Of a DNA stretch of 64,000 nt, positions 1,582-33,945 are shown one piece after another; the first letter of the stretch is position 1; every line of letters begins with the position of its first letter. The DNA lies in IMG/VR virus record IMGVR_UViG_3300028549_000507, positions 108,040-172,039 of that record, one strand, 5' to 3'. Origin of the DNA: a virus. Made by a program: the position numbers and the translations under genes. The notes beneath the pieces are model-generated. The model was not told the origin of the DNA and did no database searches. It was given only the letters and a program-made list of their open reading frames with translations.

Positions 1582-2298
1582 TTAGAAATCTAATTCATCA
1601 TCTTGATAAATACCATTACCGCCGCCACTATTGCCACCACCAGAATTTCCTCCACGAGGACTATATGTCGGTTTATTATAGCTTCCGCCGCCACTATTAC
1701 CGCCGCCATTTTTGTTAGCGACAACATTAAACAGTTTCTGCATAGAGGCGTTCTGCCACATGAACATTGACCATTGTGAAACAACGTTACACAGACGGAG
1801 GAATGTTACATCACCAACGTCAAAAGTTGTGCCGAATGATGTATTAGCTTCAACTTCCCCAACCAATCTCATATCACACAATACTACTGAATTAACTGTA
1901 GAGTTACGACCGACTGTAATCTGAATTCTCTTAACACCTTCAACTTCAACAGTGTCGAATTTGATTGTAGAGAATACTACAGGTTTACCATCAATATATC
2001 CACTTACATTCATGTAGAAATTGCTAATATCGCTGTATGGTTTTCCTGCACGATATTCTTCAACTCGACTTTTGAGGATAGACTGGAGCATACCGTTGAG
2101 GATAAAGATATGACTTTCTCCAATACTTACTTTATTATCCTTATTTTCAGAAGATTTTTCACCTTTCTTCCAAAAATTCATATTCAGTCTACCTGCATAT
2201 GCTCCAACATTGAAGCCGCAACCGCCATTGATTCCATCAAAGAACCCGTTTTCAATATTATATCCCATTGAAAGCGGTTTTGTAAAATTCTCAGACAT
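1582..2298 (-). CDS. putative single-stranded DNA-binding protein
   Basis: 238 aa; beta-rich body, Gly/Asn/Ser linker (GGNSGGG x3) and acidic-aromatic C-terminal tip YQDDELDF typical of SSBs; downstream of DNA polymerase. Confidence 0.6.
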   Translation of the reverse strand: MSENFTKPLSMGYNIENGFFDGINGGCGFNVGAYAGRLNMNFWKKGEKSSENKDNKVSIGESHIFILNGMLQSILKSRVEEYRAGKPYSDISNFYMNVSGYIDGKPVVFSTIKFDTVEVEGVKRIQITVGRNSTVNSVVLCDMRLVGEVEANTSFGTTFDVGDVTFLRLCNVVSQWSMFMWQNASMQKLFNVVANKNGGGNSGGGSYNKPTYSPRGGNSGGGNSGGGNGIYQDDELDF

Positions 2299-28525: not shown

Positions 28526-30313
28526 CTAAGCGCCTAGAAACTCATTAAGGTTCCAGATATCTTCAGGATCATAGTTGAATGTCTTATTATTTTTATCAAG
28601 AGAATCATAGAAATCTCTTGAAGTTATAATTTTGGTTTTATCAACTTTACTTTCATTAATATGTTCAATTCTATCATAATTAACTTCTGTATCATTGAAA
28701 TATCCATCTACTTTACATTTCTTATCGATTTCTCGAACAGTTTTGATAGCGATGAATTTCTTATAATTGAATGGAAACTTAATACTACTTTGAATCTCAC
28801 TAAGAGGTTTGAACTTATGTTCACCAATAGCGATAGGCTTATACGCTTTATCAAAGAATGATCTTAAGAAACTGTATTCATCTTTAATAAGTGCCATATT
28901 AGAATTGTAATATCCACCAGATCTATCGAGGATAAGTTTAGAAGGTCTAAATCCTTCTTTAAATGCCTCGATAACACAGAGTTCTTTAGGAGCATATACA
29001 TTCAATACGTCTCCGTCAAAGTCTCCGTTAAATTCAACAAGTGAATTATGCTGGATAGTTAGAATATTATTTTTAGCATCTTTAAATACATCTGCTACTC
29101 TTAAGCACTGAATAGATCCTAGGTCGAAAGATGGGTTTCTGTTAACGATTACCCAGATTCCGTCATCTCGTCTATTATGTACAAGCTTATAAATAATATC
29201 AAAGATAAATGGATCAACCTCTTCAGAATACTTACATTTATTAACATACACTCGACATTCGGGCGTAGTCATATTTGCAAATATAGGGTTACCAATACCT
29301 TTAAGCATACAATTTATAATTTCAAGTTCAAACATTCCCATAAAACACTTATAAGACATTTTCACAGAATCAATGTCGTCTATATCTGTTTCGGAAACGA
29401 TAACCATTCGACTACTATACCAAACTCGACCAGAAATAATACTACTTCTAATCAACTTTTCCTTACCAATTAATCTAGAGATAGTCAACTCATAGATCTG
29501 CATAAGGTTTCTTTGGATAGTACCGAGTATCTCCATAGCTTTAATACCCACACGATCTCCTTTTTTAACCAATCTAATATTTGCAATAATCGATATAAGT
29601 ATCGCATTAATATTATGGAAATTGAAAGATACGTTTTTAGTGGAAATAAATCCTGGTCTATGGGCTGGACTCATTACATAAATCTTACTTGAAAAAGTAA
29701 TATTACGTCTATCCATAAGTATCTGATAAAGCTCTGGTTTGGTTGTTGACTGTTTGAAGTATTCCAATACTTCAACATATCGACGTTCAAATTCCATCAT
29801 ACCAATCCCTTTAAAAGGATTCGCGACATCCTTTTTGAATGTGTCGGGATCTGAAGTATCAAGGTGAATAATCTCATCGATTATAAATGAACGTTTTCTC
29901 TTACCAATGTAAGCTTTAATCTTGTGATAAATTGATGGAATGATTATTTTATATTCCAACAAGTCAATCCACCCTCTACGGAGTAACTCAACGGAATATT
30001 TAATCTCAACTACAGAAGAACAATCAGGGCACGTCTGACCTTCGTTATATCTTCCTATAAGTTTCCCACAATCACAAGAGTATTCGATAATTTTATTATC
30101 AGTTTCAACTGGAATATTGAATCTTGGGTCAAATACACTATTGTTATTCGGCTTCATGACGTTCTCTCGGATAACATCCGAACTTTCCATCATGATCGGA
30201 TTGCCCAATTCCAAGTCTTTTTGATATTCTCTTTCCCAGTCAGAATGATCCATTCTATAAACTGTTCGCGCTATAGAATAGTCGCGTCTAGTTAATTTAC
30301 TTAAGTCAATCAA
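28526..30313 (-). CDS. rpoC: RNA polymerase beta' subunit N-terminal half with catalytic motif, probably non-virion RNAP
   Basis: Zn ribbon CDCG...CPDC, GWIDL, GKEKLIR..IISGR..YSSRMVI, NRNPS, catalytic FNGDFDGD; TTG start with GGAGG SD. Confidence 0.93.
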   Translation of the reverse strand: MIDLSKLTRRDYSIARTVYRMDHSDWEREYQKDLELGNPIMMESSDVIRENVMKPNNNSVFDPRFNIPVETDNKIIEYSCDCGKLIGRYNEGQTCPDCSSVVEIKYSVELLRRGWIDLLEYKIIIPSIYHKIKAYIGKRKRSFIIDEIIHLDTSDPDTFKKDVANPFKGIGMMEFERRYVEVLEYFKQSTTKPELYQILMDRRNITFSSKIYVMSPAHRPGFISTKNVSFNFHNINAILISIIANIRLVKKGDRVGIKAMEILGTIQRNLMQIYELTISRLIGKEKLIRSSIISGRVWYSSRMVIVSETDIDDIDSVKMSYKCFMGMFELEIINCMLKGIGNPIFANMTTPECRVYVNKCKYSEEVDPFIFDIIYKLVHNRRDDGIWVIVNRNPSFDLGSIQCLRVADVFKDAKNNILTIQHNSLVEFNGDFDGDVLNVYAPKELCVIEAFKEGFRPSKLILDRSGGYYNSNMALIKDEYSFLRSFFDKAYKPIAIGEHKFKPLSEIQSSIKFPFNYKKFIAIKTVREIDKKCKVDGYFNDTEVNYDRIEHINESKVDKTKIITSRDFYDSLDKNNKTFNYDPEDIWNLNEFLGA

Positions 30314-30331
30314 ACTGCCCTCCGTTTATAT

Positions 30332-30366
30332 AAAAAGAAAAAGAGGTTCCCATAAAGGGAACCTCT
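30332..30366 (-). terminator. intrinsic terminator between GM-rich gene and beta' gene
   Basis: AGAGGTTCCC/GGGAACCTCT stem then TTTTCTTTTT on minus strand. Confidence 0.75.
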
Positions 30367-30392
30367 CTAAAATAGTAATGGTATCTAGGAAC

Positions 30393-31118
30393 TTAGATAG
30401 AACCGAAGCCCATACCCATAGGCATTCCCATTCCCATACCCATTCCAGGCATTCCCATTCCCATACCCATGCCGAACTGCTGTGGAGCACCGAATGGACT
30501 GAATCCGCCCTGAGCCTGTTGTGGTTTAGCATTAGGATCTTTCTTAGCGAACGGACTAGTTGGAGCCTGCTGCTGACCGAATCCCATACCCATACCAGGC
30601 ATTCCCATACCCATACCCGGCATTCCCATACCGAACTGAGCGCCACCCATACCCATAGGCATTCCCATTCCCATTCCCATACCCATACCGAACTGAGCAC
30701 CAAAACCCATACCCATCCCCATACCAGAATTCTGCATGATCTGCATTACACGTTCCTGAGGAAGTGCGCCAGAATAAATTGCAACCTGAGGGCTTGTACG
30801 TACGATAGCAGATTCAAAGATAGCGTTAAGCTCTTTGATTGTTGCTTCATCTTCAGTCACTTCGATACCCTGAGATTTGTAACCTGCAGCAAGGAAGGTT
30901 TTGATGTCTTCGATCATATAGTGACGACCATATGCACCCTGCTGGGAAGCTGGCTCATACTTGATACCCTTCTGTTGAAGTTGAAGGATGATCCAAGTAG
31001 GATCAATCAGACTATTGAACTTGCTTTCAGTAATGAGAGCAGAGAGTTCAGTTCCGACTTTTTTAGCAGAAGCATTGGTACCATTTGTTGCCGTACCGGC
31101 AGAAGTTTGCTGAGACAT
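30393..31118 (-). CDS. protein with Gly-Met/Phe-Gly/Gln low-complexity C-terminal half
   Basis: 241 aa, GGAGG SD; about 130 aa ordinary N-terminal domain then (GM)n, AQFG, PGMG and QQ repeats. Confidence 0.85.
   Translation of the reverse strand: MSQQTSAGTATNGTNASAKKVGTELSALITESKFNSLIDPTWIILQLQQKGIKYEPASQQGAYGRHYMIEDIKTFLAAGYKSQGIEVTEDEATIKELNAIFESAIVRTSPQVAIYSGALPQERVMQIMQNSGMGMGMGFGAQFGMGMGMGMGMPMGMGGAQFGMGMPGMGMGMPGMGMGFGQQQAPTSPFAKKDPNAKPQQAQGGFSPFGAPQQFGMGMGMGMPGMGMGMGMPMGMGFGSI
30402..30726 (-). repeat. imperfect 6-bp coding tandem repeats (GGTATG/GGAATG) in two blocks
   Basis: Plus strand (CATACC/CATTCC)n at about 30410-30471 and 30583-30726; encodes GMGMGM. Confidence 0.9.
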
Positions 31119-31253
31119 AAACGTCCTCCAAAAGATTTGTTAAAAGAAACTAGAAAAGAGTTATTTTTCTTCCATCAGTATTTTGTTATAATAACAATAT
31201 TTTTTTATTTACTGATAGGAGATTGTGACATCTATAAACTAGAAGTCACAATC

Positions 31254-31269
31254 TTATATATAATTGAAA
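31254..31269 (-). promoter_or_regulatory. early-type promoter motif
   Basis: Minus strand TTTCAATTATATATAA. Confidence 0.6.
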
Positions 31270-31290
31270 TGTAGGTTTGAATAAATCAAA

Positions 31291-33849
31291 TTACATCATA
31301 GGTCCGAATCCGAAGCCCTGTTGTTGTTGATTAAACCCACCACCGAAACCACCACCGAAACCACCAAACATCTGTTGCTGTTGAGATGCCATCTGTTGCT
31401 GTTGCATCATCTGTTGTTGCATCATTAACTGTTGATCAGGTGTAATGTATTGTCCATTGAAGAACGTTGGGGAATTAAATCCATTTTCCATGTAGTTATT
31501 CCCAACTACTTTACTCTGATTAGCTTCGATATACTGACGGATACTGCATGGTCCCGAGCACGTAGCAACTACGGTCTGTAATGCTTTAAGTGCGAAAGCG
31601 ACTTCAACCTTGGTTCGATAAACCTGAGGCTGTATCACAGTAATATATCCTTCTTTATCCAAGATAGACAATCTAACTCGACGATCGTCCAAGTTCATAT
31701 TTCTATAATCTTTGAATTTATCTCCAAGGAACTTTGGAAGAGACTTCTTACCAACAGCACGTCTCCAGTCAATACGGTCACCATCCTTGTTGGTTTTCCG
31801 ATATTCAGGAGATAGTACGAATGTAGGCCAGAAATCACCATTGTACTCAGGAGATCCTTCAAATGGTTCACCTTCCACATAGAACTGTGCAGTAGGTGCT
31901 ACACCATTCTGTTCCGATACCGTTTTAATGATTTCATTGAACTGCGCCATGTCTTTATTGACATTTACAGGACGAATACTATCATTCTTAAAGTAACGGG
32001 ATACAGTAGGAGATGGAATCATAGTTCTATTGAATTCATAGTAGATATGAAGTTGTGATTGTGGGAATTCGGATTTAATATTGTGTACAAGTACACCAAT
32101 AAGAGATCCAAGACCATCACGAACGAAAATATCCAATGATTCAATATAGTCTGTAATCGTAACATTGATAGTTCCGTCCGCTTTAGGAGGAATCATAATG
32201 AAACGAATTGCCGCTGTCATATGCATAGACAGATCTTCATACCCGATACTCGCACCTTTGGCAAGAGCGATTCTGTTAGAAATTTCTTTACGATATTTCC
32301 ATTCATTATCGAGATTTGGATTATCCCAACGAGAGATAAGAGCAATACTCTTCGTTGCAGCAACATCAACATTACCTGAACAGTTATCAAACGTAAATCT
32401 GTCGATTGTCGGTTTGTCTTTCTCACTTGTAGTGTAGAAATACTGATCACTGTCTTCAATAATGGAAATAGGTTTAAAGATACCTATAACTTTGAGATTA
32501 AATGCAATCTGTTTAGAGATCGATTTAACAACACGGTTAAGGCGTTCGTCACGAATCATATCGGAATAAACGATATACGTCATAACGTCATATTCACAAT
32601 CACTCTGATCAAACGTATAACGTAGACGAGAATTTATCTCATTTTCCGCATGGTAAGATCCACCAGGAATATCTGTATTGATGAAAATCACACGGATAGA
32701 TCCTTCGAAATCAACTACAGGACACTCATGTGTTCTTTCATCGATATATAGTTTGTACTTAAGGTCACGAGCTCCGCGTTTCTTAAACAACTTAAGAATA
32801 CGATCTACAACCTTTTTAGCATTTGAATCATCATAATCTTCGATAAGATCTGTAAATCTTGAACGAGAAACGATGTTATAGATATGCTCTTCACGTCCAT
32901 CAATTTTGAATACATCGTCTTCAGAAGCTTCTTTGTTCTGATTGATCATATCCTCAATTACAGCATCACGAGTAACCTTAACATCAGCGATTCCACTAAA
33001 ATCATTAGCTTGAGATGAGAAGTCTTCATTCTTCTCTTCGACAACTGATTTAGGTTGAGACGCCCAGAAATCTTCACCAAGATCTTCATCGAGATCATCG
33101 ATAGGATTGGATGGAAGATCTTCATTAAGTTCTTCTTCTTCAATCTCATCATCGACAACATCATTTTCATCAACTTCTACATCATCCCCGAATAATCCAT
33201 CAAGATCATCTTCATCATCGAAGAATGAACCATACGCTTCACCGGCATTATCCGGAACTTCATCTTGTTTAGCCATTTCCTCTTCCTCTGGTTCGGTGGG
33301 GGCTTCGTCCTCATCGATTTCAGGTTCATCAACTTGATCAGCAGCAATTTCATCCTCAATAACTTCTTCTACAAGCGATTCTTGAGAAGTTTCTTCAGAA
33401 TCATTCATCATAGATGCTCCAGGAGCCATTCCGAGATTGCTACGGAGTTCTTGAAGAGCTTCAACCAATTCCTCTTCAGACAGTCTACATTCAGAATCAG
33501 TTTCAGGTACGTAGAATCTGTACTGATCTAGTGGTTTGAGGTATGAGTTTTTGAACTTAGGAATATCAAATTCCATAAGATCTAACTCTTTGCGATAATC
33601 GGAGATACGTTTCTTAAGAGGAAGATTAGCCCCTTGTACGTATTTACATCCCCCACAAACGTGAACAGATGTTGGATCACCGTCCCGATTCTTGACGGTT
33701 TTAGTTCTCTTAAGCTCTTCAATAGAAGAGCTACTTCTATCCGCAAGACAGCACTTGCAGATAACTTTACCTTCTTCAAGAAAGTACGGTTCAAACCCCA
33801 CAATCGTGGAGAGCTCCGAATTCAGTTCTTGTAGGGTGTTGGATTCCAT
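31291..33849 (-). CDS. multidomain protein: Zn finger, long acidic linker, Hef-like endonuclease-related core, Q/FG-rich tail
   Basis: CKCC...CGGC; Asp/Glu-rich region; tail QQQMMQQQQ...MFGGFGGGFGGGFNQQQQGFGFGPMM. Start moved from 33861 to ATG 33849 (GGAGG SD). Core assignment is tentative. Confidence 0.7.
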   Translation of the reverse strand: MESNTLQELNSELSTIVGFEPYFLEEGKVICKCCLADRSSSSIEELKRTKTVKNRDGDPTSVHVCGGCKYVQGANLPLKKRISDYRKELDLMEFDIPKFKNSYLKPLDQYRFYVPETDSECRLSEEELVEALQELRSNLGMAPGASMMNDSEETSQESLVEEVIEDEIAADQVDEPEIDEDEAPTEPEEEEMAKQDEVPDNAGEAYGSFFDDEDDLDGLFGDDVEVDENDVVDDEIEEEELNEDLPSNPIDDLDEDLGEDFWASQPKSVVEEKNEDFSSQANDFSGIADVKVTRDAVIEDMINQNKEASEDDVFKIDGREEHIYNIVSRSRFTDLIEDYDDSNAKKVVDRILKLFKKRGARDLKYKLYIDERTHECPVVDFEGSIRVIFINTDIPGGSYHAENEINSRLRYTFDQSDCEYDVMTYIVYSDMIRDERLNRVVKSISKQIAFNLKVIGIFKPISIIEDSDQYFYTTSEKDKPTIDRFTFDNCSGNVDVAATKSIALISRWDNPNLDNEWKYRKEISNRIALAKGASIGYEDLSMHMTAAIRFIMIPPKADGTINVTITDYIESLDIFVRDGLGSLIGVLVHNIKSEFPQSQLHIYYEFNRTMIPSPTVSRYFKNDSIRPVNVNKDMAQFNEIIKTVSEQNGVAPTAQFYVEGEPFEGSPEYNGDFWPTFVLSPEYRKTNKDGDRIDWRRAVGKKSLPKFLGDKFKDYRNMNLDDRRVRLSILDKEGYITVIQPQVYRTKVEVAFALKALQTVVATCSGPCSIRQYIEANQSKVVGNNYMENGFNSPTFFNGQYITPDQQLMMQQQMMQQQQMASQQQQMFGGFGGGFGGGFNQQQQGFGFGPMM

Positions 33850-33927
33850 ACTAACCTCCATTTAAAACACTTTTTTACACATTAATATATTGACAGTTTA
33901 ATTAATAATTATTTTATAGATCATCAC

Positions 33928-33945
33928 GATATATATAATTGAAAG
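33928..33945 (-). promoter_or_regulatory. early-type promoter motif
   Basis: Minus strand CTTTCAATTATATATATC. Confidence 0.6.

What the first reader, a model, noticed from the sequence alone, without database searches (positions are those of the whole stretch)
28526..33945. Two adjacent early proteins with GM/FG/Q low-complexity tails directly upstream of RNAP beta': candidate condensate or compartment system
Seen: the 31291..33849 protein ends in QQLMMQQQMMQQQQMASQQQQMFGGFGGGFGGGFNQQQQGFGFGPMM; the next gene (30393..31118) ends in about 110 aa of GMGMGM/AQFG/PGMG/QQ repeats; each has its own early-type motif; the next gene is the catalytic beta' half; the window also encodes tubulin. Known: nearly uncharged G/M/F/Q sequences resemble FG-nucleoporin and prion-like domains that phase separate; in nucleus-forming phiKZ-like phages the shell gene chmA lies just upstream of the non-virion RNAP beta' gene and PhuZ positions the compartment. 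Inference: these two proteins could build or gate a replication/transcription compartment in a phage where no chimallin was recognised in this window.
Basis: partly seen in the sequence, partly recalled or inferred. Interest (0 to 1): 0.85.

Follow-up and report, generated by a model that had tools for sequence, protein, structure and literature searches.

The report
Chimallin-like shell candidate in AR9-like phage
An uncultured giant phage carries, just before one of its RNA polymerase genes, a large protein whose predicted fold best matches the phage-nucleus shell protein chimallin and a small, likely very abundant protein with a glycine/methionine-rich tail; together they likely build a replication compartment in a phage group not known to make one.

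Summary
Its AlphaFold model ranks the three solved chimallins first among 48,161 chains (Z 9.7-10.1, 333-353 residues, rmsd 5.7-6.5 A). GNAT-only hits follow within about 1 Z, and there is no sequence similarity. It sits in chimallin's slot, two genes before non-virion RNAP beta'. It adds a homing-endonuclease-type Zn ribbon, an acidic linker and a Q/M/G/F tail. It marks one AR9-related clade that lacks sequence-detectable ChmA but has tubulin. The small protein keeps an uncharged tail in 14 of 15 homologues and has the strongest high-expression codon bias of 137 genes. Best reading (0.5): a divergent chimallin-type scaffold plus a Met/Gly-rich condensate partner form a compartment. Against: high rmsd, N-domain not tested alone, moderate codon bias of the large gene, tails lost in a sister subclade, no assembly data. 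The scan noted this same stretch before (e1-5411110); its notes on other genomes were not queried.

The parts
33930..33944 (-). early-type motif TTTCAATTATATATA before the large gene
   Evidence: exact 15-mer, two copies in the genome; resembles AR9 early consensus; promoter role inferred
31291..33849 (-). large gene, 852 aa: Zn ribbon, acidic linker, chimallin-like core, Q/M/G/F tail
33436..33849 (-). N-terminal domain (residues 1-138) with CxxC...HxCxxC Zn ribbon of the type in AR9 g265 Hef-like endonuclease
   Evidence: C31, C34, H63, C65, C68 invariant in 17 of 17; E 7e-5, 1.1e-4; pLDDT above 70
32965..33432 (-). acidic disordered linker (residues 140-295) with FFDDxxDLxxLF-type motifs
   Evidence: pLDDT below 50; alignment
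31534..32886 (-). folded core (residues 322-772): alpha+beta domain followed by a GNAT-fold domain; best whole-core match is chimallin
31294..31491 (-). C-terminal Q/M/G/F tail (about 66 aa), in the position of chimallin's C-terminal arms
   Evidence: equivalence inferred
31255..31269 (-). second copy of the early-type motif, before the small gene
31223..31251 (-). hairpin at the start of the small gene's long leader; hairpins of other sequence at the same place in L016 and L017
   Evidence: read by eye; not folded
30393..31118 (-). small gene, 241 aa: about 129-aa domain of no known family plus 112-aa Gly/Met tail split by a PFAKK hinge
30332..30368 (-). terminator-like hairpin plus T-run between small gene and beta'; similar in L016, L017, L018, L113
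   Evidence: read by eye
28526..30313 (-). non-virion RNAP beta' N-terminal half (DFDGD)

Best explanation
The large protein is predicted to have a chimallin-like core and is likely a remote chimallin homologue that, with the likely very abundant Met/Gly-tailed small protein, would assemble early in infection into a compartment around the phage DNA and non-virion RNA polymerase. Shown: gene order, shared upstream motif, conserved tails, codon bias, clade restriction. Predicted: the fold. Inferred: cores pack into a lattice or scaffold through their C-terminal tails, as chimallin's arms do; the Zn ribbon holds DNA; the small protein's aromatic/Met stickers in Gly/Gln spacers form a gel or condensate that fills or lines it; tubulin positions it.
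For: Top 3 of 48,161 chains are phiPA3, 201phi2-1 and Goslar chimallin, aligned over model 322-772; of the 50 rows shown, only these reach N-terminal of residue 440. Same slot as 201phi2-1 gp105-gp106-gp107. In chimallin the segments after residue 582 are needed for self-assembly (PMC9365700, passages); the model's match ends at chain residue 582, so the tail falls in their place. The last 35 residues pass one composition rule in 4 of 4 chimallins, 20 of 30 family members and 2 of 139 own-genome proteins, these two (rule set after seeing the tails). Large gene found upstream of beta' in 9 of 86 loci scanned, all in one clade of support 1.0. Small protein: tail of 75-137 aa in 14 of 15 homologues with different repeat words; codon bias rank 1 of 137, domain alone 16 of 30 codons; first among neighbours in L016, L017, L018, L115, as ChmA is in 201phi2-1. 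Tubulin in 4 of 5 clade records.
Against: Z lead is small: 10.1, 9.7, 9.7 against 9.1 for a GNAT-only chain; rmsd 5.7-6.5 A and 9% identity, whereas true chimallins superpose at 1.8 A. Model pTM 0.53 from 17 sequences. No sequence link to ChmA: E 0.35, E 0.44 with 4 chimallins, phrog_4795 0 of 1 own and 0 of 5 clade records. The large gene's codon bias is moderate (16 of 137; 51 of 206 in G002), unlike ChmA. A Zn ribbon and 150-aa acidic linker are not chimallin features. L113 and the L116-L120 subclade lack the large protein's tail; L116-L120 also lack the small protein and the ribbon; L113's small gene has low bias (6 of 8, 18 codons).
Confidence: 0.5

Rival explanations
1. The large protein is a domesticated Hef-like (Zn ribbon + EDxHD nuclease-fold + Mom-like GNAT) DNA-binding or acylating regulator. 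Its acidic linker and tail, with the small protein, form a shell-less transcription condensate like SPO1 Gp27. The chimallin match reflects shared domain ancestry, not a lattice.
For: Ribbon matches AR9 g265; GNAT fold with Mom among the hits, Z 7.4; Hef blocks fall in order along the core in 9 of 150 and 4 of 80 order permutations, against 44 of 80 for a decoy; moderate expression; Gp27 precedent (PMC13401047, abstract).
Against: Core against Hef profile is not significant: E 0.097, 0.024, 0.055 and level with shuffles; no EDxHD motif is evident in the family (by eye); does not explain why chimallins lead the list nor the shared gene slot.
Confidence: 0.27
2. The small protein is a Met-rich holdase or assembly factor for the split non-virion RNAP, or a membrane-lining protein, in the manner of GroEL GGM tails or STI1/DP repeats (recalled), and works apart from the large protein.
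For: Met is the most constant residue; L113 has only DPMMLAMLSGG-type repeats with no domain, and P0031 and L112 have DPMM repeats; always next to beta'; high codon bias.
Against: Met-poor tails (QGFGG, GGNQF, QGYG) replace it in P0030, P0032, P0023, which fits stickers better than a Met surface; no transmembrane stretch (max KD19 0.74); identical upstream motif and like tails tie it to the large gene, most clearly in L115.
Confidence: 0.13
3. The tails are neutral slippage products and the neighbours are linked only by a shared early timing.
For: Repeat words and lengths differ freely; some homologues lack tails.
Against: Composition and the two-part layout (W/F-x-K-K hinge in 9 of 15) persist at 26-47% identity; G/C-rich codons against a 33% GC genome with mixed Gly codons; the gene before beta' also holds the top such tail of 213 ORFs in G002.
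Confidence: 0.05

Closest known systems
Chimallin (ChmA/PhuN) of Chimalliviridae: 201phi2-1 gp105, phiPA3 PhuN, Goslar; PDB 8IGG, 8FNE, 7SQT; PMC9365700
   Same: Predicted two-domain core ending in a GNAT fold, aligned over 333-353 residues; slot two genes before non-virion beta'; uncharged G/Q/aromatic C-terminus; tubulin and two multisubunit RNAPs in the genome.
   Different: No sequence similarity; rmsd about 6 A; extra Zn ribbon and acidic linker (about 850 against 631 aa); weaker codon bias; partner is a Met/Gly low-complexity protein, unlike gp106 (E 0.65); beta' groups with AR9/phiR1-37-like phages.
Hef-like / EDxHD homing endonuclease-GNAT fusions (AR9 g265, phrog_559, phrog_3339)
   Same: Same kind of Zn ribbon at the N-terminus; a GNAT-type C-terminal part; weak block order match.
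   Different: Single, fixed gene rather than mobile; core not significantly similar by profile; 470 against 300 aa; no catalytic motif evident; acidic linker and tail added.
SPO1 Gp27 transcription condensate (PMC13401047)
   Same: Phage protein that condenses with transcription machinery: precedent for the proposed behaviour.
   Different: Acts on host RNAP with phage sigma factors; homology was not tested; no shell-fold partner.
FG nucleoporins and Met-rich prion-like domains (recalled; listing)
   Same: Uncharged spacers with about 30% F/Y/W/M stickers.
   Different: Met, not Phe, dominates most tails; much shorter; analogy of composition only.

Membership tests
Chimallin (ChmA) | Sequence match to the family profile | tested here: not met
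   phrog_4795: none in own genome or 5 clade records, control E 1.2e-220; hhalign E 0.35 and 0.44
Chimallin (ChmA) | GNAT-like C-terminal domain | tested here: met
   model 463-755 matches GNAT folds and chimallin
Chimallin (ChmA) | Chimallin-type N-terminal alpha+beta domain | tested here: inconclusive
   aligned only as part of the whole core at rmsd about 6 A; the domain was not folded alone
Chimallin (ChmA) | N- and C-terminal arms (NTS, CTS1, CTS2) | tested here: inconclusive
   segments in the right places, like C-terminal composition; docking not tested
Chimallin (ChmA) | Gene just upstream of non-virion RNAP beta' | tested here: met
Chimallin (ChmA) | Very high expression | tested here: inconclusive
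   codon proxy only: rank 16 of 137 and 51 of 206; ChmA 1 of 9 neighbours
Chimallin (ChmA) | Self-assembly into tetramers, sheets and a shell | not testable with these tools
   needs purified protein and imaging
Hef-like EDxHD endonuclease | Zn ribbon module | tested here: met
Hef-like EDxHD endonuclease | Nuclease domain with EDxHD residues | tested here: inconclusive
   profile tests not significant; motif not evident by eye; no nuclease among the 50 rows, which one domain fills
Phase-separating low-complexity proteins | Uncharged sticker-and-spacer composition | tested here: met
   own simple score, PLAAC was not run
Phase-separating low-complexity proteins | Droplets, gel or foci that depend on the tail | not testable with these tools
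   experiment needed

The most novel reading that the evidence does not exclude
This clade builds a second kind of phage nucleus: a sister or proto-chimallin lattice that still carries the Zn ribbon of the Hef-like endonuclease-GNAT fusion from which chimallin arose, gated or filled by an abundant Met/Gly/Phe gel protein, a phage counterpart of the FG-nucleoporin barrier.
Probability: 0.22. Interest if true: 0.96.

Novelty: new variant of a known kind. Interest (0 to 1): 0.84.

Why it matters
Nucleus-forming phages are defined by sequence-detectable chimallin, and a 2026 review places AR9-like phages outside that group (PMC13282480, passages). A chimallin-fold protein in chimallin's gene slot in an AR9-related clade would extend the phage nucleus beyond Chimalliviridae and show that profile screens miss it. 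It would also give a testable lead on chimallin's origin (an endonuclease-GNAT fusion rather than a toxin acetyltransferase) and on how phage compartments select proteins. Both proteins can be tested without culturing the phage.

Tried and rejected
PHROGs and Pfam gave nothing for either protein and only weak, inconsistent hits for homologues. PDB sequence searches gave nothing below E 0.3. ESM Atlas gave no usable hit; its model of the large protein was poor. tblastn of isolated phages: no match for either protein. Whole records of phiR1-37, BpSp, MarsHill, AR9, LPJP1: small domain 0 of 5, large protein only the g265 ribbon. GTDB genomes: none. My by-eye reading of the core as Hef nuclease+GNAT was not confirmed by profile tests and was marginal by block order. 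L115's small protein as a doubled domain: only a 22-aa match, E 0.004-0.007; the two halves E 0.12. P0034 and P0035 (2 of 15 hits) were dropped: P0035 is a repeat protein, P0034 was not fetched. The 298-aa opposite-strand ORF 30378..31274 is taken as the shadow of the repeats. No RNA holder was listed. No model of the small protein or of the N-domain alone, no Foldseek search and no complex prediction could be obtained: those machines were not available. Paper searches were seen as listings with abstract starts; none names a chimallin-like protein in AR9-like phages, but PMC12625630 (chimallin survey with structure prediction) was not read, nor any supplement.
Full report
Setting. The window lies in a 200,251-base linear virus record, estimated 72% complete. 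Its beta' N-half best matches phiR1-37, BpSp, AR9 and Staphylococcus jumbo phages at 26-28% identity. A second beta' N-half and further RNAP subunits, dUTPase, thymidylate synthase and GroEL are encoded elsewhere. No nuclear shell family hit appeared among 38 window and 104 other ORFs, nor with phrog_4795 on the genome (positive control 201phi2-1, E 1.2e-220).

Observation. Both tails, the shared 15-base motif (two copies in the genome) and the beta' neighbour are real. The tails rank joint first of 166 ORFs by a simple composition score. A terminator-like hairpin separates the small gene from beta' here and in relatives (by eye), so beta' is likely made in smaller amount, by read-through or its own promoter.

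Large protein. Seventeen full-length homologues share an invariant CxxC...HxCxxC ribbon, a variable acidic linker, a 470-aa core and mostly a Q/M tail. The ribbon matches the N-terminal ribbon of AR9 g265, a Hef-like endonuclease (E 7e-5; E 1.1e-4). My first idea, that the whole core is a decayed Hef nuclease-GNAT, failed profile tests and was marginal by block order (9 of 150; 4 of 80; decoy 44 of 80). AlphaFold2 gave confident ribbon and core domains and disordered linker and tail (mean pLDDT 66.7, pTM 0.53). Against 48,161 solved chains the top three are chimallins: 8fne Z 10.1, rmsd 6.5, 353 aligned; 8igg Z 9.7, 5.9, 333; 7sqt Z 9.7, 5.7, 336; each spans model residues 322-772. The other 47 rows shown are GNAT-type folds starting at residue 440 or later, best Z 9.1 with 172 aligned. 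Sequence shows nothing. In PMC9365700 (passages) chimallin's C-terminal domain is compared with the acetyltransferase AtaT, arms at residues 48-61, 590-611 and 622-631 are needed for assembly, and Goslar and 201phi2-1 protomers superpose at 1.8 A. Our match ends at residue 582, so the tail lies where the arms are; the last 35 residues of 4 of 4 chimallins pass the same composition rule as 20 of 30 family members and only 2 of 139 own proteins (rule chosen after seeing the tails; P0018, L114 and L117 left out; a few rows are near duplicates).

Small protein. A profile search of 1.84 billion representatives gave 15 hits, 13 of them at E 1e-10 or better. In the 15-sequence alignment, 14 keep a 75-137 aa tail with 18-34% F/Y/W/M in most, built of different words (GMGM, NPMM, GGNQF, QGFGG, QGYG), and 9 keep a W/F-x-K-K hinge. 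The domain has no known family and was not modelled. By the share of C-ending codons in six two-codon families, the gene ranks 1 of 137 (0.60; median 0.25; domain alone 0.53), the large gene 16 and beta' 25. It is first among neighbours in L016, L017, L018 and L115, but 6 of 8 in L113; ChmA is first of 9 in 201phi2-1. This is a proxy for expression, not a measure.

Spread. Among 80 viral beta' loci and 6 named ones (6-8 kb flanks), the core profile hit 9; with L016, L017 and the window they form one clade of support 1.0 in a tree of 70 distinct sequences. L112 belongs to it but its contig begins inside a DPMM-repeat ORF. L115 has GM tails on both genes; L113 has a tail-less large protein and a pure DPMM-repeat small one; L116-L120 have a ribbon-less, tail-less large protein followed by two unrelated helical proteins, the second ending in the top polar/aromatic tail of 213 ORFs in G002. 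Two clade records of 99% and 94% completeness lack sequence-detectable ChmA, and 4 of 5 have tubulin. So the core is the constant part and the low-complexity parts are exchangeable.

Mechanism. Most likely (0.5): both genes are read early by the virion RNAP (inferred from the motif; PMC5312081, passages); the large protein scaffolds a shell or lattice on phage DNA, and the abundant small protein forms a gel or condensate with it that holds the non-virion RNAP. The main rival (0.27) is a shell-less condensate around a domesticated DNA-binding GNAT protein, for which SPO1 Gp27 is a precedent (PMC13401047, abstract and outline). I put common ancestry of the core with chimallin at about 0.7. It is not filed as a chimallin family member, since the sequence test fails and the N-domain and assembly tests are open; it likely works like one.

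Novelty. A 2026 review lists AR9-like phages outside the chimallin group (PMC13282480, passages). Six paper searches, seen as listings only, showed no description of this gene pair; PMC12625630 was not read and could bear on it. GroEL, STI1 and FG-nucleoporin comparisons are recalled.

Noticed in passing
L116:3781-5861, L118:3677-5794, L119:3628-5807, L120:3627-5799: Two unknown helical proteins (about 380-405 and 303-350 aa) with weakly hydrophobic stretches replace the small gene between the large gene and beta'; the second ends in a G/N/Y/W/F tail.
   Followed up: partly
L113:5465-5908; L112:2-271: Proteins made almost wholly of DPMMLAMLSGG-type repeats upstream of beta'.
   Followed up: partly
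L112:726-3802: Three tandem ORFs that read like family-2 glycosyltransferases (by eye, label recalled) inserted before beta'.
   Followed up: no
L121:109-1248, L122:1528-2667: Tubulin-like genes (by eye) within 5 kb of beta' in a sister clade that lacks the large gene in these flanks.
   Followed up: no
window 1582-2298 (-): 238-aa ORF with a G/N/S-rich C-terminal stretch; a like ORF of 173 aa has high codon bias in G002 (L198:8801-9322); homology not tested.
   Followed up: no
L001:16363-16998 (-): 211-aa ORF with a G/M/N-rich N-terminus, the fourth-ranked low-complexity window of the genome.
   Followed up: no
L006:9896-11761 (-): Phage-encoded GroEL-like chaperonin (phrog_5725, E 2e-78).
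   Followed up: no
L214-L217 chimallin termini: Chimallins themselves carry Q/P-rich N-tails and G/Q/Y/F-rich C-termini.
   Followed up: partly
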